Assembly: GCA_045837725.1 (NCBI GenBank)
Contig: JBEWZL010000101.1
Location: forward strand, 1 to 64,000
Reading direction: 5' to 3'
Length of the DNA stretch: 64,000 nucleotides
Source: Vermamoeba vermiformis
Lineage: Eukaryota
Made by a program: the position numbers and the translations under genes. Numbering within the stretch: the stretch's first letter is position 1; each line of letters starts with the position of its first letter. Under the pieces are notes generated by a model. That model did no database searches. It had not been told where the DNA came from and saw nothing but the letters and a program-made list of their open reading frames with translations. Shown one piece after another: positions 1,001 to 57,400 of this stretch.

Positions 1001-2264
1001 GAGCACTGAGAAGACCTCCAACGCGGGACACGAACGAAAAGCATGAGCATGCACTGAAACGACCATTGGTGGTCTAGATCCGGCAATACGAAAGTCAATA
1101 AAACTTTCGATCGCGCGCGCGTTTTTCCATTCATTACTGTAATGAAAAATAAATATTATAACGATGTCTTAAATATAATTACATAGTATTTCGTTAAAAA
1201 TCCGGATAAAATTCGAGCACTAAGCTCTAATCCGGATCTTTAATTTTTTAATTGAAAAATCAATAATTCAATCAACGATTTCCATATATTATAATTGGTG
1301 GAAGAGTCACCAGAAAATTATTACCTTTTAAGATCTCGGTCACAGTTCCGAGATTTAGACGCGACAAATTGCTGACTTGCATGTCGCGCTGCAACGACGC
1401 TGATTATCGTTGTGCGCGTGTTGACTAACAATAATATCTATAATTAATACAATAATTCGTCCCTTGTGATCGAACTATTGTAAATCCAAAATCGCATCGG
1501 GGATCGTCGCAAATAACTCGCGCTGAAACGGCTCTGGTGCCGTGGCGCGTAACTGTCTGCTGTAAATCATCAATAAAAAGTAAACAATTCGACCCTTGTG
1601 GTCGATCTCTCGTCGTTCTATTTTTAGTGACAAGTTCGTATCCGCTACCGGAATTGTCAGTGAGTAAGAATCGCTTCATCATAATATATTAATGCTTATT
1701 AATATTGTTAACATTGTTTCATGAATTAATTTAAGAGAATTTCGGTGATCTCGCGGATTTAAATCCGTTCGAACTTCGAGATCGGACTTAGAACCGCGAG
1801 TAAAAATAAACTATTGATAAATTACTGGTACTTACGGGTTATTTAGCCATTATTAGCCATTAATTTCTCCAAAGCTGACGCAATCCGAGTTGTCAGATCT
1901 CCGCGACGTTCTATGACTATCAACGTTTTCGAAAAAAAAACCAACCACTCCACACGTTGTTAGTAGGCACCTACTAACGAAATTTATCAAAATTAAATAA
2001 ATCCAAATTAATTATGCAAACTTCGCGATCTTGGGCATGGTCGTGCCCACCCGGGATTATCGCGATAACTACCTTACCTTATCAAATAATATCGCGACCC
2101 TATATTCAATAGATAGATCTCTGTTTAATCTATCTGTTCCTGCAATAAATTCTTCAAAAATCAATGTTCATGTTCTTTTTTGGCTATTTTGCTTCGATTT
2201 TTTGCCACGATTTTTTGGGCATGGTTTTCGCATCAATCCTGAGCGTTTCATGCCCATCGTATAA

Positions 2265-4082
2265 CCCCGGAACTACGCGCGTGTTCTTTTTGCTCGGCTT
2301 TACTTAGCTCTCAATAGCATTCTTAACACTCTTTTTCATTAGCTCCAACCACATTCTTTATGCTCTTTGTTTGTCAATTTTTCATCATCCGCTAACTGTT
2401 TTGCCATTAATTGACTCACACCATATCATCATTTTCATGATAATCATCTTCATCATTACATTTTCATCATCACATGATCATCATCATTAAAACTCTTCAA
2501 TATTTGTCATTTCTCTGTGAACTACCCCCTGCAGGGAAAGCAGCCCCGGAACTACACGCGCGCTCTTTTTTGTTCGGCCTTTTTTAGCTCCCAATTACCT
2601 TCTTAACACTCTTCTTTGTTAGCTCCAACTACATTCTTTATGCTCTTGTGCACCACGTCATCACTTCATCATTATCATCCTTATCATCATTATCAAATTA
2701 TCCTACAATTTTTATCATTTTTTTTTAAACTACCCCCTGCGGGGATCGATCCCCGGTACTACACTAGCGTTCTTTTTGTTCGGCCTTTTTTAGCTCCCAA
2801 TTACCTTCTTAACGCTCTTCTTTGTTAGCTCCAACTACATTCTTTATGCTCTTTGTTTTTTTATTTCCATCCTTGATTTGCTGTTTTGTTATCAAGTCAC
2901 TCACACCATATCATCATCACTCCATATCATCATCACATCATCATCATCACATTACCATCATCATCATCATTGAATTATTTCAAGTATCATTGAATTTCTT
3001 CGTAACCTACCCCCTGCGGGGAAAGCAGCCCTGTTACTACAAGCGCGGTCTTTTTGTTCGGCATTTACTTGCTTTCGGTACCATTCTTTACGCTCTTCGT
3101 TGTTAGCTCCAAGTACATTCTTTATGCTCTTGATTCGTTCAACCATATCATCATCATTGCCATGATCATCATCTTGTCTTCATCATCATCATCATCATCC
3201 TCAGGATGATCATCATCACTGCATCATCATTACATCATCATCATCAACTAATTGCAATTTTCATTCATTTTCTTTAAACTTACCCCCTGCGGGGATCGAT
3301 CCCTGGAACTACATGAGCGTTCTTTTTGTTCGGCTTTTACTTGCTCTCAATGCCGTTCTTTCTGCTCTTTTTTACGACACATCATCACATCATCATCATC
3401 ATCGTTCTCATATTCACGATCATCATCATTGTCATCATCATCATATCATCTAATTTCAATTTTCATTCATTTTCTTTAAAGTTACCCCCTGCGGGGATCA
3501 ATCCCCAGAACTGCACTAGCGTTCTTTTTGTTTGGCTTTTACTTTGCTCTCAATTCCGTTCTTAATGCTCTTTTTGCACGACATTGTCACATCATCATTA
3601 TCATCCTTCTCATGATCATCATCATCATCATCATAATCATCACCATCATTATCATCATTGTCATCATCATCAACTAATCTCAAATTTCACTGATTTTCTT
3701 CATAAGTTACCCCCTGCGGGGATTGATCCCCGGAAAAGAGTGCGCGGAGCGCTATTAGATCCAAATATCGATCTTTTTGCTCTTTTTTACGTGCAAAATG
3801 ATGGGAATTACGCGCGTTAGCGTGATTATCCCGTGCTTAAAGCGTACGTGTACCAGTTAACAGTCATTGATACCATTGCAATGATGATCATCATCACCAT
3901 CATCATCATCATCACAATCAAATCAATTCAATTTTCATTCACTTTTTCAAACCTACCCCCTGCGGGGATTGATCCCCAGAAAGAACGCGCGCGGAGCGCG
4001 ACTAGATCCAAATCGCGTTCTTTATGCTCTTTTTGATGCGAAAAACGATGGGCTTTACGCGCGTTAGCGCGACTATCCCGGA
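2265..4082. repeat. Degenerate tandem array of ~200-280 bp units: core (C/T)TACCCCCTGCGGGGATCGATCCCCGG, a T-rich body and a (CAT)n-rich linker
   Basis: Cores start at about 2525, 2733, 3010, 3283, 3485, 3710 and 3956, with a partial unit at 2265 and a degenerate core at 4258. The first units share the body GTTCTTTTTGTTCGGC...TTAGCTCCAACTACATTCTTTATGCTCTT. Confidence 0.9.
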
Positions 4083-4255
4083 TTTAAAGCACGCGTTGCT
4101 GTTACTTTACATTGATTAGTATACCAATGATGAAGAATGACATCCTTCATTCTTCTATTGATTTAAAGCATTCGTGTACCAATTAACATTCATTGATTAG
4201 AATTAACAATGAAATTTCATTCTCTTATCCTCATCATTTCATTCATTTTTATTTG

Positions 4256-6820: not shown

Positions 6821-6911
6821 CAAGGTGTCCATGGCTTTGCAGATACCTTCTTAATGATGGAGTCAAATCCCCCTCATGTCATCAGGTATCTGCAAAGCCA
6901 TGGACACCTTG
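6821..6911. repeat. Perfect 28-bp inverted repeat with a 35-nt spacer
   Basis: CAAGGTGTCCATGGCTTTGCAGATACCT (6821-6848) and its exact reverse complement (6884-6911). Confidence 0.95.
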
Positions 6912-6971
6912 CATCACTTTTGTTTATATGCATTTTTGCAACAACTGCAGACTTCATTTTGTGATGGTATT

Positions 6972-7244
6972 GTCCCTGCTGTGCGGATGGGCATCCGTGC
7001 TGTGCAGACAGCTGTCCCTGCTGTGCGGACAGGCATCCATGCTGTGCGGACGGGCGTCCGTGCTGTGTGGATGGGCGTCCCTGCTGTGTGGACAGGCATC
7101 TGTGCTGTGCGGACGGGCGTCCGTGCGGTGTGGACAGGTGTCCGTGCTGTGCGGACAGGCATCCGTGCTGTGCGGATGGGCGTCCGTGCTGTGCGGATGG
7201 GCGTCCGTGCAGTGTGGACAGGTGTCCCTGCTGTGCGGATGGGT
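6972..7244. repeat. 21-bp minisatellite, 13 units, consensus GTCCGTGCTGTGCGGACGGGC
   Basis: Units are in exact 21-bp register from 6972 to 7244. This explains the repetitive ORFs in all six frames. Confidence 0.95.
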
Positions 7245-7869
7245 GTGAAGTTGCCAAGGCATAAAAAAATTCACCCTTGGCTACAAAAAAACTGTAAAAT
7301 GCTAACCCCAACGTGATATATAACCCTAGACCCTATATAAGTAAGTATGCATATTCAAAATAGTTGCCACGAAACTAAGTTCCTTAACCTTAGGCTCAGC
7401 CTTCATTGTAAACCTGCCAAGGCAAATGGATGAAAAAACAATGTTTGTGATTCAAAATTGGGAATACAAAGACAGTACAGATTTTCGTATAATTGTATAT
7501 TCAAAAATAAACAACATGTATTCAAATCGTGGGGTTTTATTCAAAAATATGACATTTTCCAGGCTTTAGGCCTATAAGCCTTAAATTAGCTAAGCCTAAC
7601 TATATATATAATATGACATTAAAAAAACAGCTATAGAAACTTTGTAGCTACTTTTTACAATATTTTATTTTTAACCCTCTCACCCCCAAACCCTAAAGCT
7701 ATATTAGTAAGAACTTCTAGACCTGTTTACCTTTTATCTTTGTCAAAAAATTTGCAGCTTTTTTATCAAAGACAATTTGTCTGGCTTTGAGAAATCCTTG
7801 TGGCCCTAGCAGTGCTATTAATATTGAAATAATTATTATTGGTGTGATTGCCCAACAAAATTACTGCTA

Positions 7870-13917: not shown

Positions 13918-14618
13918 TTACAAAAGAGCCAAAGCAACGAGACCAGCAGAGGCAACAACGGAAGCGGCACCGGAAGTACGAGTGGGAGTGGAAGCCTTAG
14001 GAGCGGCGGTGGGGGCAGCCATGGGGGCAGTAGGAGTACCTTGGTAGACAATGTCGCTAGTGAAAGCGTTCAACAAGTTGCGAGTAGCGGTCTGATCAGC
14101 TTGAGTGACACCGTAGCCATTCAAAATGGAGATGAGAGCGTCATTGAAAGCAGTGGATTCGGCGGCACCAATCATCATAGGTTGGTGAACAGCGGCCATA
14201 TCAGTGCGACCTTCGTAGGCTCCAATAGTACCGTCAGTGCAGTTGAAGGCGCTCTTATCAGCGAAGAATTGAACCAAGTGCAAGACGAGAATACCAGCAG
14301 CAGTAGTGTCCTTGGTGAAGTCGGTAGAACCAGCGGGCTTAGTACCGTTGAAGTAGATGGCGAGAGGAGATCCAAGAGCACTATTAAACGATACTCGAAA
14401 GTCAATCACTGTACGCCCGATAATAGGAAAACAATCGCTGTTCCATCCTTCGACAGATACACTTACGCAGTAACGAGATCACCAACAATGATGTTCATCA
14501 ACTCGCTGTTGTTCTTACCCAAAGCATTTGAGTAGTAATCGCAAATGTGACCAGTTTGGGCTTGAGTGCCGTAGATGGTAGCGAAGAGAATGACGGAAGC
14601 GACGATGTATTTAATCAT
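13918..14618 (-). CDS. Secreted, probably GPI-anchored truncated (2/2) haemoglobin-like protein
   Basis: Two exons (intron 14381-14466). Signal peptide MIKYIVASVILFATIYGTQA. LVQFF...YEGRTDMAAVHQPMMIGAAESTAFNDALISILNGYGV matches the group I truncated-globin pattern YxGrxMxxxHxxmxIxxxefxa...GV. A P/T/A-rich linker and hydrophobic tail (SGAASVVASAGLVALALL) follow. Confidence 0.8.
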
Positions 14619-15342
14619 CTTGCGTGTTGTTCGATGCACTTGTATTTGATAATGCAATGATTGATGCAACAATTTACTACTTTATATCGTGTTCACCACG
14701 TGACGAGCCTTCCCAACTGAATATCATTGGTCGCGAGGATTGAATCACATATGGGAGGATAATTTTAGCCCCCAATTTACCATTTTAGGAAGCGTCGCGA
14801 CTAGTTTACCAACTCACCCAATTGAAAAAGAAGGTCGGGCACTGATATTTTATGGCATCTAACGAGTGCAACTATTGATTGACGTTAGCTTCCGTCGATT
14901 GGTGATGATAGATCGCGTAATTTCAGTCAGATCCGGTTTGGCGATAGATCGTTGTAAGATACTGTAGTCGTCGTTTTTTTGTGCACTACCCTACTCATGG
15001 GAGGCTGCATTTCGACGCAAATTCGAAGGCGCGCCGATCCCAAACCAAAATGTTTCACAGTCCCTATCGACAGAATAGATTTTTCACTTTAATCCAGCAT
15101 AATTCTACAACAACCACATTGGAATATCTTTCATTGCGCAGCGAGCAGCAAGGAAGAAGCCGCTTCATCGATCGGGTCAGATGGTTCTGCTCTCTAGTTG
15201 CTCGATGCCTCGCGTGAGACCAAATTAAAATTTACATCTTTACAACCTTTCCTTTCAGAAAATTAACTGATAACCGAAATGTCGATAAATTTACTATTTT
15301 ATTCAATCTAATATACAATTTTTGTAATTAATTTTCCTATAC

Positions 15343-18300
15343 TTAATTGTCTACAACGGAGTTAGTCTCAAGCAACGGATTGTCAAAGACTTCAAAATCG
15401 AGTTCGTTAGCCATAGGCTCGAAGTTGATATCGAACGGATTGTCAAACATGTTGGCCTCGGTAATAACGATGGTATCAGTGAACACATTGTCTTCCAACA
15501 GATTGCCCACAGGCTCGGCATCCGCAATATCGAAGAATGGTTCGCGCAGTGTCGCAAATTGGCCGCGTCGAGCAGTGCCGTGCTGAGGTTGAGTCGGTCG
15601 ATTGGCCACGGGTCTGTTGTTGTTCGCTTCGTTAGTGTTATTCTCCGTGCCGGGTTGATGTTTCTCTCCGACTTGTGCCACGGGGTTGTTGATGGTCACG
15701 TTCTTGGGGGCCGCGGGTTCGGGTCTTTCGATGGGCTCAGCAGGGGCGGAGCGGACTGGACCACCCTTGTCCTTTAATCTCTTGGGAGGTTCGCCGTACT
15801 TCTCGATAATACGATCGACCAAAGTGGCAAGTTGCTGCGAGGAAATTAGCCAATGTTTTTTGTGAAAGATCCGTAGCTCGTGTTAGGTACTTACTCTAGC
15901 GCGGGCTTGATCAGGCAACTCCGTCAAGGCGACCTTAATCTTCTGTTGATTACGATAGATGTGAGTGTGCAAGTAAGCCAAAGAGTTCTCGCGGACAGTT
16001 GCAGGCACAGACAGATTCGTTGCCATTCGTGGATTCGCCTTGGCTTCGGGATTCTAAAAGAGAATTAGAACAATTAATATAACCAAGTAATAGGTTACCG
16101 ATAATACTTACGAGAAGTGACTTGTAGTAGTGAATCATCTTGGGCTTGTTACGCTCAATGAAGTCGAGCATACTCTCCATAAAAGCTTCTTTCTTCGTGT
16201 TGGCCAAGTTAGCAAGATTCTGAAGTACCTTGGCAATCAAGACCAATTGGCGTTGAGCCACAGAGTTTGGCGGCTCCCTCAACAGACCATAATAGTGCGG
16301 GGCGGTAATGGCCGGGCAGACGAAACGCAAGAACAAAAAGCCTCCCAAAGCCTTGTAAATTGCTTCCGAGTCTCCGTATTGTTCGGTGATGCTCGATTGA
16401 ATACGAATGAAGACTTGACGGAATTCGCTGCAATAAACTTGTAAATTACCATAAAAGGAAATAATATTTCAAAATGCAATGCTTACGCAGGGACGTTTTC
16501 ATCAGCAGCAGCAATAGCAGTGAATAGCTTTTGACAAGCAAGGGCCAATTGGTACACGTTCTGATCTTTGTCGACGTTAGAGTCCTTCAACTTGTTTGGA
16601 TCGACCTCCATTTCAATGGTCAGCAGAGAGGCAGTAGTATCCGCACCCAATTTCTCGAGCTTTTCTTTTTCTTTTTGGGCATTGGCAGCGACAGTGTTCA
16701 ATTCATTAATGACACGAGCCAAAGTGAAGAACAAGAAGCGCGTGCCGACGATCTGAGAGTAGAACTTGAACATCTTTGAGGCCATTGAGTTCTGTCTGAA
16801 AATAGTGTTCTCACTCGCTAAGCATTGTATTAGATATGAAACCGATAAGAGGGTTTGTACGTACTTGACTTGCGCACTTCATCAGATGCAAAGAACTGGA
16901 TCAGATCCGAACCGATTCCTTTGTGGTGACTCAAGTAGACAAGAGCCTTAGCTACAGCGTCGTACTCAGTGGCAGCCGTAATGGCAACGAGGATACGCAA
17001 GAAAGTACGGTCCTTGTTCATCAAAATGTCTTCGAGCTCGCTGTACAGTACTCATGAGAAACCAGGCCGGACATTAAGTCGAGATGATACTTACACATAA
17101 TCGTCCTTAGTAGTAACACGGAAGTGCTGAACCATTTCATTTTGATAAGCGACCTTCTCGTAGTCGGGCTCCTTGACTTGCACAAATAGACCTCGTCTTC
17201 TCTTTTGATAGCGAGTGAAGAGGTAGTAGAACACACCACCACCAATCATAAGAGCTCCGGCAATGGACATACCAGCGGCAAGACCGGGGACAGAGAAGGG
17301 AGACACTGAGCACAGGCATTAGTTGCTTGGTTGTGAGGCGTTATCATGGCGAGCAATACGTACCCCAAGTGAATGACAAAGTGTTGGTGGCGTACTTCTT
17401 GTCATCGAACATCATTTCAATGTCTACTGACTCGTCAGCTGTGCCAGGGACAACAATGACGGTCATCTACGCGAACATTAGTACGAGAGTTGACAAGGAT
17501 TGCTGTGACACGTACGGTAGTACTGTTGATAAATTCGTATTCAGCAGCGTCCTTGCCCATAAGAATCTTAATCGAAGGATGGTTGATGAAGTACTCGCCG
17601 ACGAGAGTCACTGAAGCACCGCCGCTCGCTGATGCAGAGTCAGGAGTAATAGAAATCAAGTCTAGTACAGCCGTTAAGTATCTGAAACATGAATGAATAG
17701 TTTTGACTTACTAGGACAACCACCGTCGGCCCAATCTCCCGTGCATCTCTTCAAGGTCGAGCAAGAGTTCTCTTGCAAACACCAACCGCAGTATTGTTTG
17801 CGGCTGCAGTCGTCGCAGTTTGAAGTGGTTTCGCAATCGACGTAAGTGAATTCAATGGGCGTCAACAGATTAGAGCCTTTGTATAGCACGCCCAGAGCTA
17901 CTTTGGAGGCAACTCCACTAGCAGGGAGTGCGCAAGCCACTGTGTTGAGACCGGTAATGTACGCGGGCACTTGAGAGAGACCTCCGACTGTGCAAGTGAG
18001 GAGAGATGGTTCTGAAACGGTTTGGAAGAGTGATCTCTTAGCGGTCACTGGAGCATCAACTGGAGCGTCAGAGCTGGGCGGGTTGTCAATGGCTGTCAAG
18101 TTGGAAATAATCGACGAGTTCAACAGAAGGAAATCCGGCAGACGTGGGGTGAAGGTCAACGTAACGTTGGAGTTGCCAAAAATGGACATGTGATTGGGCT
18201 CAGGAGTCACAGCTACGACAAAGAGTCAGTTAAATTGCGCGCGACTAAGCCAAAACACGTACTTAAACATTGAGTGAGGAACAAATCCTCGGCAGTGCAA

Positions 18301-21300
18301 CGACTGGCTGAAGTGCACGAGGACGAGGCCACGCACCAACCGCAGTGAGGTTGAGCCATACAGAACGAGTTGCACGATGTTTGTGCGAACGTCTGGCATT
18401 CGTAGTACGTGAACTGCAAGGAAGAGTAAGGTGCGTAGATAATGCCATTCATCCAAATCGTCAAGTTGACTGTCTGTGTGAGCAAGGAAGTTGGAGTCGC
18501 GCAAGACAACACGCTGTTGCTTTCCACGACGGCAGGTGAGACCTTATCACCGAAGTGACACTCGTAGGTGAAGTTGGTACGAGAGAAGAAGGGACCACCG
18601 CTCACGGAGACAGTTTCACCACCGAGGACGTAGCCGTAGTTGGGTGTAACTGACGTAAGGGAAGGGCAGACGTCTGTTTTGAGCTCAGCATCGGAACACA
18701 CTTCGTCACATCCCGCTGTACACCACGTGCATTTGGGCGTGACATCCGTGATGCACTTCGAACAGTCCCCAGTAATTTGAGCGCAATCTAATGACGTTAG
18801 TTTAGGTCCGATAAACGTAGCGTGCTACTTGTTGATACGTACCATACCACAGGAAGGGCAGGGAATTAGTCCAAGCATAACCGTTATATGCCAATGTCAC
18901 AGTACCAGTAGCCGCTGCACCAACAGCAGGAGCAGTGCAATGCACTTCATTCGCAGCGCTGTAAGTAGCTGGCGTTATCACAGTTGAAGCTCCATACGAC
19001 CAAAGGCACGTAACGGAACCACTCAAGAGCGTAGGATTGAAAGCTCCCGTAATGACAATCGTTGCATTACCAGTCTTAGAGACACTGGTGGGCGCGACAG
19101 CAGAGATACCTAAAGAGCATTCATAAGCAAGGTTATTGGTGGTTATTCAATCTTACTTGGACACGAGGCAGAGGAAGTCAGTTTCGTGTTGGCGCAAGTC
19201 ACACTGGAGTGCGTGCAAGTAGCACTAGCGCTGCAAAAAACGCACTCGGGCTTAGTACCGTCCAAACATGCCCCGCACGACGTTCCGGTACAATCTGAAA
19301 AATTAATTAGCCAATTAATTGCACCGCACCAAGCACGTACCGTATATCTCGAAGGGAAAGTTGGGCACAAGACGCGAAGTGGCACCAGTGGTTGAACTGT
19401 AAAGCCAGAGGGACACTGATTGCGTTCCAACACCCAAACTACTGTGCACAGTGCAAGTAATTGAAGTCGGTGAAGAGACTGAGCCAGTAGTCGTAGCGCT
19501 ACCAATGACGTCACCGGCTGCGTTGAAAGCGCAATAGAAAGTTAGACCGCTCAAATAGGCAAAGCTACCAGTAACTACACCACCGTTAGCAAAAACTAGA
19601 TTAAACCAAACAATGTACTTACTAGTCATCACTTGACCTGATTTGACTGCACCGGTGTAAATGCGCGACGGAGACACTGAAGAGATGGCTGCACAAAGGA
19701 TGTTAGCCACTGGGCTCAAACGGTGCTTAAATAGACTACTTACATGGGCAAGTACCAGTCTTGTTGCATTGAACTGAGCTGTAGTGACAATTCTGAGAGT
19801 CAAAGCAGAAAGCGCATTCTCCTTGTGTGAGCGAATTTGTACAGCCAGAGCAGTCTTGACCGTAAGTATCGCAATCTGTGGTGTGTTAGAATAACTGAAA
19901 GTAAATTAGTAACTATAGTAAACACGTACCGAACAAGTAAATGGCCTTAGACTTGGAAGCCAAGGTTGCAGACGACGTGCTAACTTTTAGGACCAAGTCA
20001 ACGTTCAGCTCACGATTGGTACCACGGGCAGTACTCCAGTTGGTTACTGTAGGAGGCTTGCACGTGAGGGTGTTAGAACGAATCAATGTGGCCGGTGTTG
20101 GAGTATTGGCAATGGTCGTAGAATCGCTGCTGTACAAGCACTGATAGTTGGCGTTGATATTTTTGTCGATGGTGATTGTGAAGTTTGTGTCTGCAGACAG
20201 GGACAAATTAGTGAGCGAGGCACTAGCGCGAATGATCTGGGCCTCCACTTACTGCCAACGATGGACGCGCTTGCGGGAGAAATGTTGCTGATAACAGGGC
20301 ACGAGGTACTGAAACCGCTGGCACAGCCTCTTTGCGAAGCACATTGCATTGTTGGAATGCAAAGTCCACATTCATCGCGTGTAAAACAGCTAGTGCACGG
20401 AGTGGAATTGGTGAGGGCAGAGCAACCTAGAAGAATGTTAGACGCCTTATAACACTCGAACTACGCTAGCTTACTGTAGTACGAGAATGTGAGCGAATTG
20501 GGAGCCCACAAACTACCGCTGTAATACACTTTGAAAGTCGTGTCACCAGCAGAGGCAGAAGGAGACGTGCAGCGAAGCGTGGCGCCGTTAACGACAGTAG
20601 CACTGACGCGAGATGCGGTGCCCCACTGACACTCGAAGCCAGAGTTCAGAGTGTTACCCGCAGGATCGGTGAATTGACCAGTGACGGTGACCGTAGTTCC
20701 ACCGTCAGTGCTGCCACTCGTAGGCAAGATCGACGTCAATGCTAGAAACACAACGCATTAAAACCGATGATTAGTGCACGGCAACGACTTACTGGGGCAA
20801 ACGTAAGTGCTGGTATAGAAGTTTGAAGCAGCGCACGAGGTTGGCGTGACGCAAGATCTGCTGGTCGAGCAGTATCCGCTGCACAAAGGTGTTAGTTTCA
20901 ATCAATTGCTAACATGTTACCAGCACACGTACCAGTAGTTAGTGTCACTGTTACAGGTGGTGCAAGTGTAATCCGTGCAGCCTAATCGAACAGTTGTAAG
21001 AAACACGAACACAAAGTATACGAAGGATACTTACTTGCTGTACGAACCATCGACACGGTATCACCAGCGGTATTAATGTACATCATCTGGAATTTGTTGT
21101 TACGAGGATCGAGATCACCCGTGTTGACGGTGATTCCCGAAGGGAATGAATATACACCAAACGTGTCAAAATTGGGGTCGTTCAAATTAATGCGGATAAT
21201 TCTTGATGTTACTGGCGTGCTGCGGCTGATTGCGTTTAAAAATACAGCACCATAGGTGTCATCTGAGACGAAAAGATTAGTGTTGAATTTTGGGCGTAAA

Positions 21301-22777
21301 ATACGTTTCATACGTACCAACTTGCAAAGAAGAAATGGACGCATCGTCAATAAAAGAAATTCGGGTAAAAGCCCAAGAGCTGGCATCGATCTGTCAAAAA
21401 TTCCACGTTAATATTAATTGCACCAATTTAATGGTAAAGTTTTGAAATACCTCCGTAAGCACACCGAGATCACCTCCGATGTAAATCTTATTCAAGGAAG
21501 GGCTGACATCCATTGCTTGGATCTGGATTTGGAATTAGATTCGTTCACAAAAAGAACCGGATTCTGGTGGACCAATTATGGCATTTGTGATTGATATCAA
21601 TATTAAAACTATCATTACCTGGCCAACTCCTCGAGTAATTCGAGTAATAGAGTTTGCTGCAACATTAGTGTTGCTAACAGATCTGTATAATACGACGGTA
21701 TTAGTATTTAACATGCACGTAACTAATGAAGCTCATATTGCCGGGAGTGCATACGTCACAAAAAGGTTTCCAGATGCACCACCAAGAAAAACATTGCCGT
21801 TTATGATGACCAACGACTTCAGATAAGAGGCGCTACCATAGACATCAGATGAAACGTAATCACTGTTTGCACCGCTTTGATAGACATTTTTGTAGTAACC
21901 AACTTCAGTGTCTGCGGCAACCCAGATTCCTTTCTGAACACTGTCCAAAGCGCACGCCTATCGCCCACGTTAGTACCAGGTTTAATTTAGTACTCAGTAT
22001 ATTTACTTACGTTCCAAAAACGCCAACTGGTCTGACCTCTGTTACGGATCGAAGCAGTCGTCTGCGGATTACCTTGGGCATTAAAGTTGCTAAGCCAGTA
22101 AATGCGACGGTATATTCGAGTGCAAACAAAAACTAGAGAATATTAGTGAAAGGAATGCGAGAACAGACAAACATGACGTACTAGAGCCATTGACTGCGTC
22201 AAAAAAAGCGCCGATAATTTGGTCGTCGCTCTCAATAGTTTGGAAAATTGGAGTGCCCATGTTACCCGGGTTATCATAAGGGATCTATTAATATTAGTAA
22301 AAGCTTATAATAGTGCATTGCTACGTACGGCAAATAAGTTGTTGCCAACCGCGACCAAGGCTCTGGCGTTTGTGGAATCGCTGCCATAAACATAACCAGT
22401 GGGCTGTGCATAAGTACTAGAGACAGTTGTTGTTGATAAAATCTAAGGAAAACGTCAATAATAAACTCGGAATTGGATGACATCCAATTAAAAATAACCG
22501 TTAGCTCGGAAAAACAATTAAATTAATTTGTACAATCAAATCAACCTAGCCTTAAAGACACTTAATTTAGTGAGAAACGGCGTTCTACTCGATTAATTAG
22601 GGCAAATAAAAAATTAATCACCAATCCCGAATCCCGGGTGAAACAAGTCAGGCAATATAATCAAGATGTATCACTTACAGTCATGCCACGCGCGCTTTGA
22701 GCGTTGATGGTGTAGGGCAAGCAGCAAAGCAGCCAAACTGAGGCAAGAAGCACGGCAGTGAGGTAACGTCGTGCCAT
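15343..22777 (-). CDS. Plexin-like single-pass receptor: signal peptide, beta-rich N-terminal domain, about 7 PSI-IPT/TIG pairs, TM helix, RasGAP domain
   Basis: N-terminus MARRYLTAVLLASVWLLCCLP. PSI repeats such as CDDCSRKQYCGWCLQENSCSTLKRC and CMAQPHCGWCVASSSCTSASRC. IPT repeats such as LTSILPTSGSTDGGTTVTVTG and LTSVTPNYGYVLGGETVSVSGG. TM GLAAGMSIAGALMIGGGVFYYLF followed by RYQKRRR. RasGAP motifs IFRQNSMASK (Arg finger), FLRFVCPAITAP and LIAKVLQNLAN. More than 20 short introns. Confidence 0.9.
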
Positions 22778-34242: not shown

Positions 34243-36029
34243 TTAGCATAGTTGTAGCACTGCTTCTCGTTCTCTTATGTTTGTGAAGAACGAGTCGTTG
34301 ATATAAAACTCCAGGTTTTTGCCTTCGCTATTGACAGCTTTGATGTCGTGACCTAACACAAGTGTTATTAAGATTGGACACATATATAACGAGTAATTGC
34401 CTACCTTGTGCTAGGAGTGTTTGCATCAGAGTGATTGTATGATAAGGTACGCAGAAAATTATTTTCCAAGTGTACAGTGCACGCGTCACTTGCCCTATCA
34501 CGTGAAAGATGGTGTTGTTGGAGCCATTGCCGAGGATGTCGTTCCAATTCGACTTTGGAACGGAGTTTACGAGGAATAGAACGACGTCGTCAAGGTCTGG
34601 GTTTGTGAATGACACCTCCACTGTGTTGAGCAAGATCTCTGACACGTTGACAAGTGCGTGGGTCAGCAAGAACTGCATGACTTGCAGTTTGTTTTTAAAA
34701 CTCTTCTTGCGCAACAGAACTTGATCCGTCCACTTGCGATCGAATTCAAAGCCTTCTTGCACGAGTACTTTTGCTACTTCCAACAACGCGACGTCCTTGG
34801 TGGCCGCGGCGGTGAGCACATCCAAAAGAATTTTCGATTGGACTGCAGGGGAGGCAAACACGCGTTTCAATGAATTAGTTCTTTGCAATAATTCAACGCC
34901 TTTCAGTGAAATAGCGCGATTAATGGTGTCTTGTATATCGACGAGCGGGAATTGGCTGAGAGGTTCGGACCAGATCTGTTGTATGATTTCTACGGGTTCT
35001 TCTTCGCATAAAATTGATAAAAATATCTTTGCGGACTTGGTAAGCAATTCTTTTTCGTTTCTAGCGCTGAAATGTTCCAAAATCATTTGCAAAGCTTCGT
35101 GATCCCACTTGACACTGACTGCTTCGACTAAAGGCCGCTGGCATTTCAATAATTGGTCGTTGAAATCTGTCATGAACTGTTTGAGAAGCTGTTTGGGGTT
35201 CTTTTGTTGAATAAACTGCTGCATCCAACAGAAATAAGTCATTGGGCTGTGTTTGGTCTTATTGAACAACGGTGAAGTGATGAATGAATTGATAAACTCC
35301 GCGTCATTCGATTTAAAGCACAATCCAACCATCAAGTGCTGATTATTGTGGATCAGATCGACGAGCTCTGTGACATCCGCGCTGGATTTGACTTGATCCA
35401 AAAATAACTTGTTTTTATGCAATAATGCCGTTTTAAACGCATTATAATATATCTCCGGGGCATTTGACATATCTATTTTCGTTTCTTTTGTTAATAATAA
35501 GCGTTTGACCCCTACGAAAAAGGAATTGAATTAATCCATCCGATGTGCACGAAAAATAATTCATAAACAACTTACATCGTTCAATATGCACAAACGAATC
35601 TGTTTTAGCTTTATCCATGGCAATAGCTTGGATTAAGGATTTTACGGTGCGATTATAAAGGTATTCGTAAGAAAAAATTGTTTCAAAAGACTGTCTGAAC
35701 CCAATTTTCCGTTTCGGAACTCTAAAAATAAGGCATCAGCATTATATATTATTATTAAGTAATTTGAATAATTTAGAAACGATAACTGAAGAAATATCTT
35801 TACTAAGAATTATTTACCTTGATAGATCGTAGTCGTTGGCAATAAGCTCGTCTAATTTTAAGAGAGTAGATAAAATCTCTTCTAAATTAAATATTTTTAA
35901 ATTTTCTTTGCTCGTTTGGCGCAATTTGAGCACATCTCGCGAAGGTGATAGGCAGAGGTACTGTAAGAGCTCTGGCAACAGGTCTGTAGGTAGAGTATTA
36001 AAAGAAAATGCCAAAGCTGTTGTTGCCAT
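34243..36029 (-). CDS. F-box-like protein with a helical/ankyrin-like C-terminal region
   Basis: MATTALAFSFNTLPTDLLPELLQYL...LKLRQTSK (F-box-like), a 380-codon exon, and terminal ankyrin-like NNTIFHVIG...LLAQG/HDIKAVNSEGKN. The last exon stops at 34243. Confidence 0.65.
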
Positions 36030-41813: not shown

Positions 41814-44758
41814 ATGGAACGCAACATTGGAAATGTCAGATTTGTGCGAGTTAAGGATGTTGGCACGAAGCTGAAAAACGAACAATTATATGACAAAATT
41901 CTGCGAGTAGCAGATGATTTTGTTGGTCAAAAGTTGCGCCCTCGAACTCAATATTGGTTTGTGTGGGATCAAAATGTCACCGAATTTCAGATCAAAGGAA
42001 GTTTCGAGCGGTTAGCCCCAGATATACCACATAAAGGCCATTGTATATCTCGATTATATTCAAAAAAACCTGGCAAGAACATTTGTCGCCTCACCCACGC
42101 CCAACATCCACAGATCGAGTTTTTTATTTTTGTCGAAGCGGAAGAAAAACCTCACCCTGCCGACGACGTAGAAGTGCCGAATAATGTTAATACTTATGAT
42201 TATAATAGGTCGTAAGTAACGTTTGGTTTAGTATCAATTTAAAATTACTAACGTGTACAGCTCACCTGTCAATCCGCAAGACGAGACTGCTAATTGGAAT
42301 AACCCCTCTACTAGTACACCAGATATGAATCAGTGTGTAACGCATTCTTGCATCGTGAAATGAATTAACTCGTTGTCCAGTAACACCGCACAAACGGAGA
42401 GCGCAAAGGAACGAGTGAATCTGCTGCTCTTGGTTCCGCCACACAATGAAATACTCCAATTAATCCACGACACACTGACCAGCATGGAATTTCAACAAGA
42501 AGTCGTGTCTAACGATCAATGTCTCTACAGTCGCAGACAGCACATTGACTGGTTCGTGCTACTGTTCCCGTACAGTGAAGTACGAGCGACTTACTTGGCA
42601 CAATATTTACTACTGGCTAGTGAAGCACTGTTGTGTCTGTTTGACAGCCAGCAGCAGCTGGATTTGGTTGTCATTAACCAGATCTTGCATGAAAGCGAAC
42701 ACCTGCAATTATTGACCCAACAGAAGCACTTAGTATCATCACACCTCCATAAAATGGCAATCAACTTCTGGGAAATGGATTTCAGAGTTCAGGCAACAAT
42801 ATCAGTAATTGAGAATGCATTCCGTCAAATGACTAGCCAGTTCAAGCCTTTGGCCGTAGGAGCTTTGCAAGCAAAATATCCTGTTGAACAACCTGCTGCA
42901 CTACGTAGCTATCTCAATGCTTGGCTTTCAACACCTACTTTCACCACAATGAATGTCTATGTGTGCTTCAGATATGAGAAGTCAGTAAGCACACCATTCA
43001 GTCAAGTGCAGCAAAATATCTACCAAGCAGTTAAAGGTGTTGGCATTCCAGTTGAGTCATTTCAAGTTGAATGCATTGTGCAAGGCAGTATTTTGGCCTA
43101 CATATCATGTCCAAGCTCTACATTGTGGCATGTGATGGCAGTGCAAGACAAGTTATTCACAGCCTTTCAATCACACAGCATGGAACTGACAAGCATCTAT
43201 GAAGCCACAATAAGTGATGTTGAACAGTCAATGGCACGTGAAGACAATGCTCCTTACAAGGCAGAGTTGATGGAACTAAAGCAAGTGATGATAAGAGAGG
43301 GAGCCAAACAAGATCCTGACAACAGACAGTAAGTGCTGATAGATTACTAATCTTGACACTTAACTATAATATTTAGGATTTATTACTCAAACAAATTTTC
43401 ACCTGAACAAAGAGAAGCCATTGCTCTCTTTGACCAAGGCAAAGAGAAGTTTGAAGAAGGCAATTATAAAGAAGCTTTGGAAGCTTTCACTAGCGCCAAA
43501 GATCTGTACCCCAATAATGCACAAATACTTCAATACCATGGTGCAACAAATTTCATGTTGAGCAATTACCAAGAAGCTCTTAAAGACTTGCACAACGCAA
43601 ATCTGTTGCAACCAAATAATCAGTTTACCCTCAGCTACAGAGGAGCAACAAGACGGCAGCTCGATGATTATGAGGATGCTTTGGCTGACTTGAATGCAGC
43701 AAATGATCTTCACTCCAATGATGCATTCATATTAAAGCAGCGTGCATTAGCAAAAATCAGTTTGTTTGACTCAGTTGGAGCGTTGGAAGACATAACACAA
43801 GCTATCAAGCTAAACCCCACAGATAAAGAAGGGGTCACTTGGAGAGATAGAATTGTGGTGCTGAAAGACTCACTGAATGGTATGTCACACCTCCTTAAAA
43901 CTGGTAATTAATGGTTTTAGGAAACAAGCTAATTGAAGCAAGTGAATTCAAAATGTTTCATATGATTGGTGAAGGGGCATATAGTGAAGTTTTTCTTGCT
44001 GAATGGCATGGCATAAAGATAGCTGTAAAGAAAGCAAAATCACAGGCACAAAGAGCTGGAGAAAAGATTCTCAGGTATGAAATTTTGAATGAATTTTAAA
44101 TAATAATTACAACAGCTCACTGCAGCACAAACATATTGTTAAAATTGGAGGTGTTGCTACTGATCACATGATCATCATGGAGTACATGAAAGAAGGAACT
44201 CTGAGTGATCACTTAGCTAAAACAATGTTGTCCCACCCAGAAACTATTCAAATTGCATTGGACATTGCAAAAGCACTGAATTATCTCCATTCACTAACAC
44301 CTAAAGTTATCCACTGTGACCTGAAGGATGCTTCTATTATGGTAATTCAACTTCTTATTAATGAGAATCAAGCTAACCAAGTTCATACAGCTCTATGGAG
44401 GTAGAAAGCATGCTAAGCTAGCAGGCTTTATAAATGCAGTTGCTATGGAGAATAACAAAAAGAGAAGAACAGTTCTTGGTATGACATACTTCATGGCGCC
44501 AGAAATACTTGCAGAAGAAGAATATGATGAAAAAGTTGACATCTACAGCTTTGGAGTACTGTTGTACAAAATGAGTTCAAACAACACATTGCCTATATTG
44601 GAGGACGTGCCCGCTTAATACGCATTCAACAAAATGTAAAATATCTAGACCTGTCACAACTAGTGCAAGATTGTTGCGCAACAGATCCAGATAAACGACC
44701 AAGTGCAGCTCAGCTAGTGCAGTACCTCAAAAAGATGAAGAAGGCAATAAAGTTGTAA
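41814..44758 (+). CDS. TPR-repeat protein with a C-terminal degenerate TKL-type kinase (probable pseudokinase); start uncertain
   Basis: TPR repeats at 43430-43860 (YQEALKDLHNANLLQPNN, YEDALADLNAANDLHSND). Kinase motifs IGEGAYSEV, IAVK, IHCDLKDASIM, KLAGF, FMAPE, KVDIYSFGVLLY, DPDKRPSA. Confidence 0.8.
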
Positions 44759-53902: not shown

Positions 53903-54453
53903 GAACTAAAAATTAAATTAGATTCGGATTGATTTTGAAACTTTTACTCCTTCGTGCTTGTACTTACGAACAAGAAAATAATGCATGATATCCTTAGGAT
54001 AATATTGTTATGCATTTTAAATGCGGCTCTGGGTCAGTCCGATATCGGGTTGTTCTTGATCGAACTAGTTGGAAGATCCGACCTGAATTTAATTTCTTTG
54101 ACGAGTTGTGCTCTTGTCTATATCCTTTCAATAATAATACGTAAAAGCCGCTCGCGAAATCGTAAAAAAACAGTCACATTCCAAACTAGTCAATTTGCCA
54201 AAAAAGGCAAGATAATCGTGTGATAGCAGCCAGTTAAGTAACTCTGAATTATGCCGTACCCGAAAACTTTGTCACATGTCTACCGTTTAATACCCGATTC
54301 TGATTTAGGCTACCGTTTTACTGGTGCTAAAAAATTATGTACAAATAAATTAATAGTTAATCTCCCGCAGAGCTCAACTTATGCCAATATTAGACATCGA
54401 ACATTTCGAGTGTCACATATTCGCTCGTCGACGGCCTTATTCCACTCACGCTC

Positions 54454-57400
54454 TTATTTCTTCTTTGCCTTGGATTTTTTCTCCTTCGCCTCTTTTTTCG
54501 CGGATTTGCTTTCTTTTTTCGACTTGTCTTTGGATTTCTTCAAGCTACTTCGCTTACTTGAGCCATCTGTTTCGACCTTAACTTCGACTTCAGCACTAGG
54601 TTTGTCTTCAGCGACGTCCTTGGACTTCTTTTTCTTTTTGCTCTTGAACAGCGAGGCAAACTTGTGGCCCGTCTTGTTGGCAATATTTTGTGCCTTGTTG
54701 CCGCTTTTCTTCTTGCTTGATTTATCCTTGGGAGACTCCTTCTCATCCTTCTTTCCTTCAGCTTCCAGTTTTTCGACTGAGGATCCTCGGAACGAGACAC
54801 TGAGACCCTTTTTGAGGCCCTTCTGTTGCGGATCTCGCATCGCTGATTTCAATTCGGGGTCGTTTTTGCTTTCGGTAAGATCATTGGACTCTTTCTCAGC
54901 GTCGGGGACCTTGCGTGACTTGTTCGATCCGCGCGAGCTCTTCAAGTTTTCTTTAGAGCCCTTCAAATTATCCTTCGAGCCCTTCAAGCTATCCTTCGAG
55001 CCCTTTCGAGATGACGGCTTATTTTCTTTCTTTGGCGCAATAACTTCGGATGTTGAAACGTCGTCTGGATTGTACTTCTCAATGGGCAGTTCTTGGCCGT
55101 CATCTGCTACTCGCTTCATGAAATCATCGCGCACTCTAATCTTGAGCTTCTTAGATGTCTTAGCACGCTCTTGGCGCTCTCGTCTTTGTTTTTCTTGGAG
55201 CTCGCGGTTGGCATAGAAGGACTGAAAAAATATGGGTCAGATCGAGGATCTTTCGAGAACGGGTGAATTAATTAATAAAAGGCGTTGTTATTCTTTCGAT
55301 CCTCTTATGGATATATTTTTAAATTAAAATTTCGATTAGCTTTGTCGGTTGAGATATTTCAGCAAAGTTTTAATCCAAACGCTTCCGAGATATTTCGGAT
55401 GATAAATCTTACCTTAAACGCTTGACCAAAGTTGTAAATGATCGCAAACACGCGTTCTCGGGCCGCAGGGTCTTCGCCGATCCACTTACAAACTTCAGCT
55501 TGCTCTTCCATAACTTTACCAAGGCGCTCGATCAGCGACTCGATAGGCTTTTGATTTTGGGCCAAGAAGGTCTATTAGAGCATTGAGTTAGTAAGATCTA
55601 ATAAATAAGTGAAACCTATACTCGAGCACTAGCCAGGAAATTTTACTACGGAACAGATCCGATACGTACCTTGATGAACGGAACCATGGTGCTGGTAGGG
55701 TGATTTTCGAGGTATTCGCGCATAGTATTAAGACTGATGCTCCATTGGTTGACTTCTAATGAAAGTTCTTGCAGGGCAACTACAGATATTGTCGGTTAGA
55801 TCCACGTTAACTTTAACATGTACTGGATCCCGTCCACTACGAGTCGAGCATTGCTATTAGAACTTACCATCTTTAGCTTCTTTAAGGCACTCGAGCTCTT
55901 CGTAGAAATGCTTCAAGCTCGTTTTTTCAAGGTACTCCGCAATCCAATCAAACAACGAAACATCACCGGGTTTCACGGTTTGTAACTGCAAAATTTCAGT
56001 TAGTTAATAACGTGCAACATTAAACACAACACGCAGTTGCAATAATACGCACCTTAGTAATAGAGGCCAGCTTGAAACCCTTCATGGGTCGGTGATCTAA
56101 GATCGCAACTAGCTGCATGATCGTCTGTAAATTGATTCGTTAGTTTTATATTACAATGTATTTCGCATGTAATTTAGGTATTTTTAATATAAAAATGCCT
56201 CACAAAAGGTAAGATCTAATTAAAATCCTCGAGGATACTTACAGCCAAAACTTTCTTAAATTGATTGCTATGACGCACAACGCCGACAGCTTTCTCGACA
56301 AAGTTGAATGACTTGTCGATATCAGGCTTTCTTTCCTCGTAGATAAAGATAAATCGTCGCAAAACGAATCTCTCTTCGAGATCAGGGATTTTAGCGAGCT
56401 ATTCAAGGAGACCATTAGCACTGAATCTGGTTAACTATAACATGTTATTATTTACCTTCAAGAAAGCGCGATCCACAGCGCCGAGCTTGGTAAGTTCACC
56501 ACCTTCAGCGAGGTAATCGTTAATAACTTTGATCTGCAGTCAGAGATTAGTTATTGGAGAACGAATATAAGTACGTTAGTAACATACATCCGTTTGAGTA
56601 GGGAAGCACGTGTAGCCGTTATCAGCATTGCTGTATGATAACATCGTGTCTACCAAATCTCGGTTCTCGAAGATGACCGGGTCGAAATTGGCAATCTTTT
56701 GCACCAAAGCATCAATAGTGAAGGATTTGATCTCGCCACGCTTCAAAATAATCACTATAAAACGAACAAAGTGAGTTTGAATCCGGTAGAAATCTCGAGG
56801 ACCGCATGCGAATCCAAAACTTTTTCGTAAAGAAAGCTGGTTAAGCTTGATAGTATTAGGACTACTTACAGAAGTTTCTAGAACGATTTGGTTTCAAGAA
56901 TGACACGATATCGTCTAGCGGCAGCGCTGATTTTTTCTTATCGTCACCCGCTTTCTTCGCGCGCTTGGTGAATGCCTCGATAAAAGCTTGTTTGTCTAAC
57001 AAGCCTAGCTCACCAGCTAAGCTAGCGATTTCCGCCCATAAAGTGGAGTCTTCGACCTGGAATCACAAGACGTTAGAAGTTCATCTGGCTGAGCGGAAAA
57101 AAAAATGTGTGAACGGATGCCGATCCTTAAAAGTTCGAATTGTATTCGCGCAATGTATAGTAAGCATCAGAACAAAATGTTCGCTCGCCCGATAAGGTAA
57201 ATAAATTGAAAAGAGCTTTGCACGAAATTTTTCCGCGATGTCTTAATTAATTAATTGGTGCCAGGCACTTACCTTTTGCAAACGATCCCAATGGACGTGA
57301 ATAATCGAGTCGTCCTTGAACTCTGGTGGTGGTGGGGGTGGGGGAGGTGGGGGAGGTGCTGGTCCACCTGGTCCGCCGAAATCTGCTGCACCGTCTCGCG

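What the first reader, a model, noticed from the sequence alone, without database searches (positions are those of the whole stretch)
15343..22777. Plexin-like receptor-RasGAP in a protist-type genome, with an unsplit GAP domain
Seen in sequence: signal peptide, a ~350-aa beta-rich N-terminal region, about seven alternating PSI and IPT/TIG modules, one TM helix, and a cytoplasmic RasGAP with both catalytic signatures (IFRQNS, FLRFVCPAI) and no large insertion between them. The tail is acidic with DNPF/DNPL motifs. Established: plexins are Sema-PSI-IPT-TM-GAP receptors whose GAP is split by a Rho-binding domain; to my knowledge they are described from animals and choanoflagellates. Inference: this is either a proto-plexin predating the RBD insertion or a convergent assembly coupling surface sensing directly to Ras/Rap switch-off. 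Best candidate here for an undescribed signalling system.
Basis: partly seen in the sequence, partly recalled or inferred. Interest (0 to 1): 0.82.

Follow-up and report, generated by a model that had tools for sequence, protein, structure and literature searches.

The report
Amoebozoan plexin-like receptor with canonical RasGAP
This is one real, spliced gene for a cell-surface receptor that looks like a plexin outside the cell but carries an ordinary Ras-inactivating enzyme inside, and it belongs to an apparently undescribed family of membrane-anchored RasGAP receptors in amoebae.

Summary
The minus strand 22777..15343 holds one 29-exon gene for a 1903-aa protein. Spliced contigs from three public studies and a collinear 1886-aa ortholog support the model.

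Order of parts:
- signal peptide
- compact seven-bladed beta-propeller (about 330 aa)
- seven PSI-IPT pairs
- one TM helix
- conserved EPDY juxtamembrane motif
- RasGAP domain
- acidic tail with one NPF

PSI and IPT modules resemble those of plexin, Met and RON. The GAP, however, is a canonical NF1/p120/SynGAP-type RasGAP (Pfam PF00616). It gave no Plexin_cytopl, Sema or RBD signal.

Its closest GAP relatives are other TM-anchored RasGAPs with different ectodomains: LamG3 in Acanthamoeba and Balamuthia, and EGF in an unnamed protein. These form one clade in the tree.

Named family members come only from Amoebozoa (Vermamoeba, Echinamoeba, Soliformovum).

Most likely this is an independently assembled receptor-RasGAP that switches off Ras or Rap locally on ligand contact. 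Function is inferred, not shown. Six text searches found no description of such proteins.

I rate it a new variant of a known kind, interest about 0.6.

The parts
15343..22777 (-). Whole coding region: 29 exons, 28 GT-AG introns, 1903 aa, stop codon included
   Evidence: model. (collinear with P0031). (spliced contigs from 3 studies).
22679..22777 (-). Exon 1: start codon and signal peptide (MARRYLTAVLLASVWLLCCLPYTINAQ...)
   Evidence: Hydropathy peak at residues 5-23. The same N-terminus occurs in ortholog fragment P0028.
21035..22696 (-). N-terminal seven-bladed beta-propeller, residues about 28-360, end of exon 1 to exon 9
17364..20981 (-). Seven PSI-IPT/TIG pairs, residues 361-1342, exons 10-23. 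Most exon borders fall at module borders.
   Evidence: Pfam TIG and PSI on window exons and on relatives. Cys map of 7 x (8+2). PDB matches to plexin, Met and RON PSI/IPT.
17095..17305 (-). Exon 24: TM helix (about 1350-1373), basic stop-transfer stretch QKRRRG, and conserved juxtamembrane EPDY..VAY motif
   Evidence: Hydropathy. Family alignment.
15895..17040 (-). RasGAP domain, exons 25-28. Arg-finger codon (FRQNS) at 16795-16797. FLR arginine codon at 16325-16327. KVLQNLAN motif present.
   Evidence: Pfam PF00616. PDB matches. Motif alignment.
15343..15834 (-). Exon 29: end of the GAP-associated helices and the 138-aa tail. The last 63 aa are acidic, with DNPF and DNPLL.
   Evidence: The tail is shared only with the closest orthologs P0031 and P0001.

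Best explanation
This is a single-pass type I receptor of an amoebozoan family in which a plexin/Met-like ectodomain is wired directly to a canonical, catalytically intact RasGAP domain. The ectodomain is a seven-bladed propeller on a stalk of seven PSI-IPT pairs. The GAP domain starts about 40 residues below the membrane.

Shown here: the gene structure, its transcription as one spliced molecule, the domain order, the GAP type, the conserved catalytic motifs, and the family.

Inferred mechanism:
- The propeller binds an unknown surface or soluble ligand.
- Engagement, by clustering or by enrichment at a contact site, concentrates the tethered GAP under the membrane.
- There it accelerates GTP hydrolysis on Ras and/or Rap and extinguishes the local Ras/Rap patch. 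From general knowledge of Dictyostelium, such patches drive protrusions and macropinocytic or phagocytic cups in amoebae.
- In this ortholog group the acidic NPF tail probably recruits EH-domain endocytic proteins to remove the receptor.

Inferred origin: the architecture arose by domain shuffling of a TM-EPDY-RasGAP cassette with various ectodomains inside Amoebozoa. On this reading it is convergent with plexins rather than ancestral to them.
For: One gene:
- Spliced contigs from 3 studies match the model. X1 record 1 bridges the GAP, the TM and the ectodomain.
- The model is collinear with the ortholog P0031.
- Vermamoeba, Echinamoeba and Soliformovum transcripts have the same architecture.

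Domains: among 26 family members, RasGAP matched 26, TIG 25, PSI 20 and TIG_plexin 17.

GAP type:
- Profile against the PDB: NF1 1e-44, p120GAP 1.6e-41, SynGAP 3e-37.
- The arginine of the FR finger motif is present in all 25 aligned rows that cover that block (one row reads LR instead of FR); FLR (WLR in 2) in 26 of 26; the K..Q..(A/S)N motif in all 25 rows that cover it.
- The FR-to-FLR spacing is 125-154 aa in 28 of 28 members, so no RBD-sized insert exists.

Shuffling:
- The nearest other GAP domains belong to LamG3-TM-RasGAP proteins (Balamuthia P0226, Acanthamoeba P0017, P0231, P0233) and an EGF-TM-RasGAP protein (P0230).
- Of the proteins of 800 aa or more that scored above 220 bits on the GAP profile, all but the window's own close ortholog group had a TM-like segment (19-aa hydropathy above 1.9) shortly upstream of the GAP; that group's TM (about 1350-1373) scores 1.65. 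RasGAPs without a TM scored 145 bits or less.
- In a quick ML tree of 50 rows, 35 TM-type rows lie on one side of a branch with SH-aLRT 97.
- The EPDY..VA(F/Y) motif is shared across ectodomain types.

Against: - No experiment or expression context bears on the ligand, the GTPase specificity or the regulation.
- Whether a constitutively membrane-tethered GAP is regulated at all is unknown.
- The NPF tail occurs only in the window gene and its two closest relatives, 3 of 28 members examined. It cannot be a family-wide mechanism.
- Some signals point to plexin kinship. The best PDB sequence match of the N-terminal profile is plexin-A4 (1.7e-6), and the alignment runs about 70 residues upstream of the PSI into the last blades. 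The PSI alone gives about 15 of those 21 bits. TIG_plexin matches 17 of 26 members.
- No plexin, NF1 or p120 sequences could be put into the tree, so convergence rests on profile scores rather than on a joint phylogeny.
- The outgroup sample is small: fungal Bud2-like, trematode SynGAP-like and a few unnamed proteins.
- The window's own organism is not identified.
Confidence: 0.7

Rival explanations
1. Proto-plexin. The amoebozoan receptors and choanozoan plexins descend from one ancestral propeller-PSI-IPT-TM-RasGAP receptor of early Amorphea. On this view the plexin lineage later diverged its GAP, inserted the RBD and elaborated the propeller into Sema.
For: - The order of parts is the same: seven-bladed propeller, PSI, IPT array, TM, GAP of the RasGAP superfold.
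- The best PDB sequence matches of the PSI/IPT modules are plexin A, RON, plexin-A4 and Met.
- The N-terminal profile's top PDB match is plexin-A4, covering the last blades plus PSI.
- TIG_plexin matched 17 of 26 members.
Against: - Plexin_cytopl and Sema matched 0 of 26 members.
- No plexin cytoplasmic chain matched at E<=10, although NF1 reached 1e-44.
- The GAP cassette is shared with LamG3 and EGF receptors.
- No semaphorin, Met or RON chain matched the N-terminal profile.
- The propeller's strongest sequence relatives are multi-repeat surface proteins with Peptidase_C25, Big_3_5 and Calx-beta domains.
- The published survey (passages read) found no Sema proteins in Capsaspora or Creolimax (PMC6374515).
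Confidence: 0.13
2. Mainly an adhesion or recognition molecule, comparable to IPT/TIG-rich allorecognition proteins of social amoebae (recalled). The GAP domain would serve as a scaffold or Ras/Rap-binding anchor rather than as a regulated enzyme.
For: - The ectodomain is long and rigid-looking: seven PSI-IPT pairs with 13 N-glycosylation sequons.
- There are many paralog clades per species: Vermamoeba P0005 and P0062, Echinamoeba P0216 and P0220.
Against: All three catalytic signatures are kept throughout the family, which argues for selection on catalysis: the finger arginine in 25 of 25 rows that cover the block, FLR/WLR in 26 of 26, and K..Q..(A/S)N in 25 of 25.
Confidence: 0.12
3. Annotation artefact: two neighbouring genes, a secreted or TM PSI-IPT protein and a cytosolic RasGAP, read through as one.
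For: None was found.
Against: - A single spliced contig spans the GAP, TM and ectodomain exons, and the joints agree across 3 studies.
- The ORF is continuous.
- Full-length orthologs lie on contigs too short to hold introns. For example, P0031 has 1886 aa on 6090 nt.
- EukProt transcripts marked as complete ORFs have the same layout.
Confidence: 0.02

Closest known systems
Plexins (Sema-PSI-IPT-TM-split RapGAP receptors of animals and choanoflagellates)
   Same: - Type I receptor with a seven-bladed N-terminal propeller followed directly by a PSI.
- An array of PSI and IPT modules whose nearest solved relatives are plexin, Met and RON.
- A single TM.
- A cytoplasmic domain of the RasGAP superfold with an arginine finger.
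   Different: - The propeller is compact (about 330 aa, 2 Cys) and has no Sema Pfam signal.
- There are seven strictly alternating PSI-IPT pairs. By recall, plexins have 3 PSI and 6 IPT.
- The GAP is PF00616, close to NF1 and p120 (1e-44), not Plexin_cytopl.
- There is no RBD insert.
- The juxtamembrane region carries a family-specific EPDY motif.
- The named hosts are Amoebozoa.
Cytosolic RasGAPs: neurofibromin, p120GAP/RASA1, SynGAP
   Same: The catalytic domain and its three signature motifs are shared. E-values are 1e-44 to 3e-37, and the alignment to p120GAP runs over the whole GAP-related domain.
   Different: Those proteins are soluble and are recruited to membranes by C2, PH, SH2 or Sec14 modules (recalled). 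Here the domain is permanently tethered about 40 residues from a TM helix, behind a 1340-aa ectodomain.
Met/RON receptor tyrosine kinases
   Same: The ectodomain follows the same logic: propeller, PSI, IPT array and TM. The IPT modules match RON and Met chains.
   Different: The cytoplasmic effector is a RasGAP rather than a kinase. No kinase family appeared.
LamG3-TM-RasGAP and EGF-TM-RasGAP proteins of Acanthamoeba castellanii, Balamuthia mandrillaris and unnamed sources (P0017, P0226, P0231, P0233, P0230)
   Same: They share the TM-(E/K)PD(Y/F)-RasGAP cassette and fall in the same GAP clade.
   Different: The ectodomain is a concanavalin-like LamG3 or an EGF module instead of propeller-PSI-IPT. 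The proteins are about 900-1050 aa. In NCBI they carry only generic RasGAP or 'ira2' names.

Membership tests
Plexin | N-terminal Sema domain (Pfam PF01403) | tested here: not met
   0 of 26 family members matched at E<=0.01. None of 5 matched at E<=1. No semaphorin, Met or RON chain matched the N-terminal profile at E<=10.
Plexin | Seven-bladed beta-propeller fold ahead of the first PSI | tested here: met
Plexin | PSI and IPT/TIG modules in the ectodomain, and a single TM | tested here: met
   (TIG 25 of 26, PSI 20 of 26, TIG_plexin 17 of 26). TM.
Plexin | Plexin-type cytoplasmic GAP (Pfam PF08337 Plexin_cytopl) | tested here: not met
   0 of 26 matched. 0 of 10 matched at E<=10. No plexin cytoplasmic chain matched the GAP profile at E<=10.
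Plexin | Rho-GTPase-binding domain inserted between the two GAP halves | tested here: not met
   The FR-to-FLR spacing is 125-154 aa in 28 of 28 members. The alignment to p120GAP is continuous, with only one short gap.
Canonical RasGAP (Pfam PF00616) | Profile match above the gathering score | tested here: met
   Window exon 27 scored 63.7 bits against a cut-off of 28.3. 26 of 26 relatives matched.
Canonical RasGAP (Pfam PF00616) | Arginine finger (FRxxS), FLR motif and K..Q..AN motif (motif definitions recalled) | tested here: met
   The window protein has FRQNS, FLRF and KVLQNLAN. The motifs are conserved across the aligned family.
Canonical RasGAP (Pfam PF00616) | Stimulation of GTP hydrolysis on Ras or Rap | not testable with these tools
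   This needs a biochemical assay.
Met/RON receptor tyrosine kinases | Cytoplasmic tyrosine kinase domain | tested here: not met
   No kinase family appeared.
Amoebozoan TM-anchored RasGAP receptors (provisional grouping proposed here) | TM helix 20-40 aa upstream of the GAP, juxtamembrane (E/K)PD(Y/F) motif, and a GAP domain in one clade | tested here: met
   In one search, 35 rows lie on one side of a branch with SH-aLRT 97. That tree was a quick search with a limited outgroup.

The most novel reading that the evidence does not exclude
The propeller-PSI-IPT-TM-RasGAP receptors of Amoebozoa and the plexins of Choanozoa share a common ancestor. If so, a plexin-type receptor-GAP existed in the last common ancestor of Amorphea. 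This gene would preserve the ancestral state: an unsplit, NF1-like GAP and a minimal propeller, before the RBD insertion and the Sema elaboration.
Probability: 0.13. Interest if true: 0.85.

Novelty: new variant of a known kind. Interest (0 to 1): 0.6.

Why it matters
Plexins are the textbook case of a receptor whose cytoplasmic domain is itself a small-GTPase GAP. The literature read here places their origin in Choanozoa, by shuffling of pre-existing PSI, IPT and RasGAP domains with a new Sema domain (PMC6374515, passages read).

This family shows that amoebae also fused an ectodomain directly to a GAP. They used a canonical RasGAP, and they did so repeatedly with different ectodomains: propeller-PSI-IPT, LamG3 and EGF.

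It makes two questions testable:
- How does a permanently membrane-tethered, NF1-like GAP become ligand-regulated?
- How do amoebae couple surface contact to the Ras/Rap patches that shape pseudopods and feeding cups?

It also supplies the outgroup needed to decide whether plexin architecture is ancient or convergent.

Tried and rejected
- Automatic splice search. The first searches gave wrong N-terminal exons and a false last intron. I replaced them with a hand-curated model.
- Whole genome. None is held for this window.
- Word-based search with the ortholog's N-terminus. It found nothing at E<=0.001. This is probably because the cluster representative lacks that part, so it is not evidence of absence.
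- Sema chains in the fold lists. None were among the 50 rows shown. That absence does not exclude a Sema relationship.
- ESM Atlas search of the N-terminus. All scores were below 0.9, so these are leads only (Reg_prop, Ldl_recept_b, SGL).
- Sequencing runs. No RNA holder was listed. Raw RNA reads of run X13 laid 0 reads, so that run is no test.
- Earlier findings of this scan. Three look-ups returned nothing.
- Other ORFs in the window. Pfam on the 10 largest gave no family at E<=0.001, so the organism could not be placed from neighbouring genes.
- Source names for the propeller's bacterial-looking relatives. None were on record.
- Literature. Six searches returned nothing relevant: 'plexin+RasGAP+amoebozoa', 'plexin+Vermamoeba', 'RasGAP+IPT+transmembrane+amoeba', phrases such as 'transmembrane RasGAP', 'RasGAP+Acanthamoeba+ectodomain' and 'plexin-like+Dictyostelium'. 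In the eight 'plexin+Amoebozoa' papers, the word plexin referred only to the PSI domain name or to choanoflagellates in the two I opened.
- Supplements. Supplementary tables of these papers could not be seen and might list such proteins.
Full report
**1. Gene model**

The region is eukaryotic, with about 46% G+C and many short introns. On the minus strand an ATG at 22777 opens a reading frame that is broken by short GT-AG introns with GTAAGT or GTACGT donors and CTAAC-like branch sites.

Two automatic path searches gave partly wrong N-terminal exons. A hand-curated model has 29 exons and 28 introns: 27 of 44-96 nt and one of 236 nt. It encodes 1903 aa and ends at the TAA at 15343-15345. Most exon borders in the ectodomain fall at module borders.

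**2. Is it one gene?**

Three independent lines say yes.

- *Ortholog collinearity.* The model aligns from residue 16 to 1903 with P0031 (1886 aa), at 78.7% identity over 1897 columns. No insertions or deletions occur at exon junctions. P0031 and three near-identical proteins lie on contigs of 5.8-9.4 kb. Those contigs are too short to hold introns of the kind seen here, so I infer they derive from transcripts.
- *Spliced contigs.* Contigs of three public runs from three studies, 95-99% identical to the window, carry the spliced form.
  - Of the 15 joints listed, 13 coincide exactly with my introns once the tool's stated cut ambiguity is allowed.
  - Two (17467|17517 and 20741|20795) are 1-2 nt off, with substituted letters at the exon edge.
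  - 14 more joints were not shown.
  - X1 record 1 (2221 nt) runs from 15342 to 17988. Its internal coordinates equal the summed lengths of exons 29 to 22 plus part of exon 21. So the tail, GAP, TM, IPT7 and PSI7 sit on one spliced molecule.
- *Named transcripts.* EukProt transcripts of Vermamoeba vermiformis, marked as complete ORFs, have the same layout.

The kind of these runs is only guessed as RNA by the tool. The removed introns are what show that they come from spliced RNA. Raw RNA reads of X13 laid nothing, so that run is no test.

**3. Anatomy**

| Part | Residues | Basis |
|---|---|---|
| Signal peptide | hydrophobic core 5-23, then INAQS |; same N-terminus in fragment P0028, |
| N-terminal domain | about 28-360, only two Cys | |
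| Seven PSI (8 Cys) alternating with seven IPT (2 Cys) | 361-1342 | Cys map; Pfam TIG/PSI |
| TM segment | about 1350-1373, followed by QKRRRG | |
| Juxtamembrane motif | EPDYEKVAY | |
| RasGAP | about 1410-1690 | |
| C-terminal helical stretch, then tail | tail 138 aa | |

- The ectodomain has 13 N-glycosylation sequons.
- The last 63 residues have 16 acidic and 0 basic residues, with one DNPF and one DNPLL.

**4. The GAP**

- Pfam places it in PF00616. Window exon 27 scored 63.7 bits against a cut-off of 28.3.
- Ortholog fragment P0025 against PDB sequences gave p120GAP 3e-24, NF1 1.6e-23, SynGAP 3e-23 and IQGAP2 1.7e-6. Plexin chains matched only in the PSI/IPT part.
- A profile of ten cytoplasmic fragments gave NF1 1.1e-44, p120GAP 1.6e-41, SynGAP 3.2e-37 and IQGAP 8e-16. 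No plexin cytoplasmic chain matched at E<=10.
- Plexin_cytopl matched 0 of 10 fragments at E<=10 and 0 of 26 full-length members at E<=0.01.
- The arginine of the FR finger motif is present in all 25 of 26 aligned rows that cover the block (one row reads LR). FLR (WLR in 2) is present in 26 of 26, and K..Q..(A/S)N in the 25 rows that cover it. The motif definitions are recalled.
- The FR-to-FLR spacing is 125-154 aa in 28 of 28 members. The alignment to p120GAP has only a short gap. So no RBD-sized insert exists.

The GAP is therefore unsplit because it is an ordinary RasGAP, not a primitive plexin GAP.

**5. The N-terminal domain**

- The first AlphaFold2 run, with 6 rows, was poor. pLDDT was 60, and the best matches were six-bladed propellers.
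- With 30 rows the model reached pLDDT 81 and pTM 0.85. It has 27 strands arranged as seven four-stranded blades, with the N-terminal strand closing the last blade, and the PSI follows.
- No Sema chain is among the rows shown. That does not exclude a Sema relationship.
- By sequence, Sema (PF01403) matched 0 of 26 members.
- The family's N-terminal profile hit plexin-A4 at 1.7e-6 in the PDB. The alignment covers the last blades plus PSI1. It scores 21 bits, of which a PSI alone gives about 15.
- The same profile hit Bacteroides hybrid two-component Reg_prop propellers at about 2e-6.
- No semaphorin, Met or RON chain matched.
- Against 1.84 billion representatives, the profile found 454 proteins at E<=0.001. 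The strongest matches outside the family are multi-repeat surface proteins with Peptidase_C25, G8, Big_3_5 or Calx-beta domains. Their sources are unnamed.

The domain is a compact extracellular propeller of a widespread, un-Pfam'd repeat type. Kinship to Sema is not shown.

**6. The family**

- Twenty-six full-length relatives were scanned. RasGAP matched 26, TIG 25, PSI 20 and TIG_plexin 17.
- Seven PSI signatures are found by pattern in 17 of 28 members.
- Named members are Vermamoeba vermiformis, Echinamoeba exundans and Soliformovum irregulare. All are Amoebozoa by my own knowledge.
- Several paralog clades exist per species.
- The window's organism is not identified. Its nearest relatives are unnamed environmental sequences.

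**7. A wider cassette**

- The next-closest GAP domains belong to LamG3-RasGAP proteins (Balamuthia P0226, Acanthamoeba P0017, P0231, P0233) and an EGF-RasGAP protein (P0230).
- Among the proteins of 800 aa or more that scored above 220 bits on the GAP profile, all but the window's own close ortholog group had a TM-like segment (19-aa hydropathy above 1.9) shortly upstream of the GAP. In that group the TM at about 1350-1373 scores 1.65. RasGAPs without a TM scored 145 bits or less.
- In a quick ML tree of 50 GAP domains, 35 TM-type rows lie on one side of a branch with SH-aLRT 97: 27 TIG/PSI, 4 LamG3, 1 EGF and 3 others. Twenty-three TIG/PSI rows form a clade at 99.
- Caveats on that tree: the search was quick, four end branches are long, and the outgroup is limited and has no NF1, p120 or plexin.
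- The juxtamembrane (E/K)PD(Y/F)..(V/I)A(F/Y) motif is shared by all ectodomain types.

This pattern fits shuffling of one TM-GAP cassette with different ectodomains.

**8. Mechanism (inferred)**

The receptor presents a propeller on a long PSI-IPT stalk. The GAP sits about 40 residues below the bilayer, where prenylated Ras and Rap reside.

I propose that ligand- or contact-driven clustering raises local GAP density and extinguishes Ras/Rap-GTP. In amoebae that would locally suppress protrusion or cup formation. The role of Ras patches and of NF1-type GAPs in Dictyostelium is recalled, not tested here.

The acidic NPF tail suggests EH-domain-mediated endocytosis. It is confined to the window gene and its two nearest relatives, 3 of 28 members.

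Substrate choice between Ras and Rap cannot be read from the sequence.

**9. Comparison and novelty**

The protein works like a plexin, in that a receptor is fused to a GAP. It fails three defining plexin features that were tested: Sema, Plexin_cytopl and the RBD insert. It is a member of the canonical RasGAP family.

The plexin-origin papers, read as passages, searched by Sema domain. They place plexins in Choanozoa and note that PSI, IPT and RasGAP occur separately in unicellular eukaryotes (PMC6374515; PMC8011033; PMC6792448).

Six text searches found no description of TM-anchored RasGAPs or plexin-like proteins in amoebae. Supplements could not be read.

Predicted proteins of this family already exist unnamed in public databases. 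The novelty therefore lies in recognising the family, not in new sequence.

Noticed in passing
window 15658: Contigs of all three runs carry a 9-nt in-frame insertion relative to the window, GGAGAAGGC or GGGGAAGGC on the + strand. It lies in the tail-coding exon, so it is a three-codon length polymorphism between strains (table 4).
   Followed up: no
window 6972-7243: A tandem repeat of period 21 (13 copies, also read as period 63 x 4.3) lies inside overlapping 152-aa ORFs on both strands (6858-7316 + and 6874-7332 -).
   Followed up: no
window 2785-4090: Two long tandem repeats (periods 202 and 247) carry (CAT)n/(ATC)n tracts. The 2001-4000 block has strong strand asymmetry, with GC skew -0.35 and AT skew -0.22.
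   Followed up: no
window 13918-14681, minus strand: The downstream neighbour has ORF pieces that begin with a hydrophobic leader (MIKYIVASVILFATIYGTQAQ...). It is probably a small secreted or membrane protein. The 186-aa piece gave no Pfam family.
   Followed up: partly
window, ten largest ORFs outside the gene (e.g. 34328-35530 -, 42364-43332 +, 54248-55216 +): None matched a Pfam family at E<=0.001. The neighbourhood therefore gave no clue to the organism or to a ligand gene.
   Followed up: partly
P0226, P0017, P0231, P0233, P0230 (related proteins, not in the window): RasGAPs of Balamuthia, Acanthamoeba and unnamed sources carry LamG3 or EGF ectodomains, a TM and the same juxtamembrane motif. 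This looks like a broader class of receptor-RasGAPs.
   Followed up: partly
P0066, P0069-P0075 (related proteins, not in the window): The propeller's strongest sequence relatives are large proteins with 4-9 repeated matches, combined with Peptidase_C25, G8, Big_3_5 or Calx-beta domains. The propeller repeat itself has no Pfam model.
   Followed up: partly
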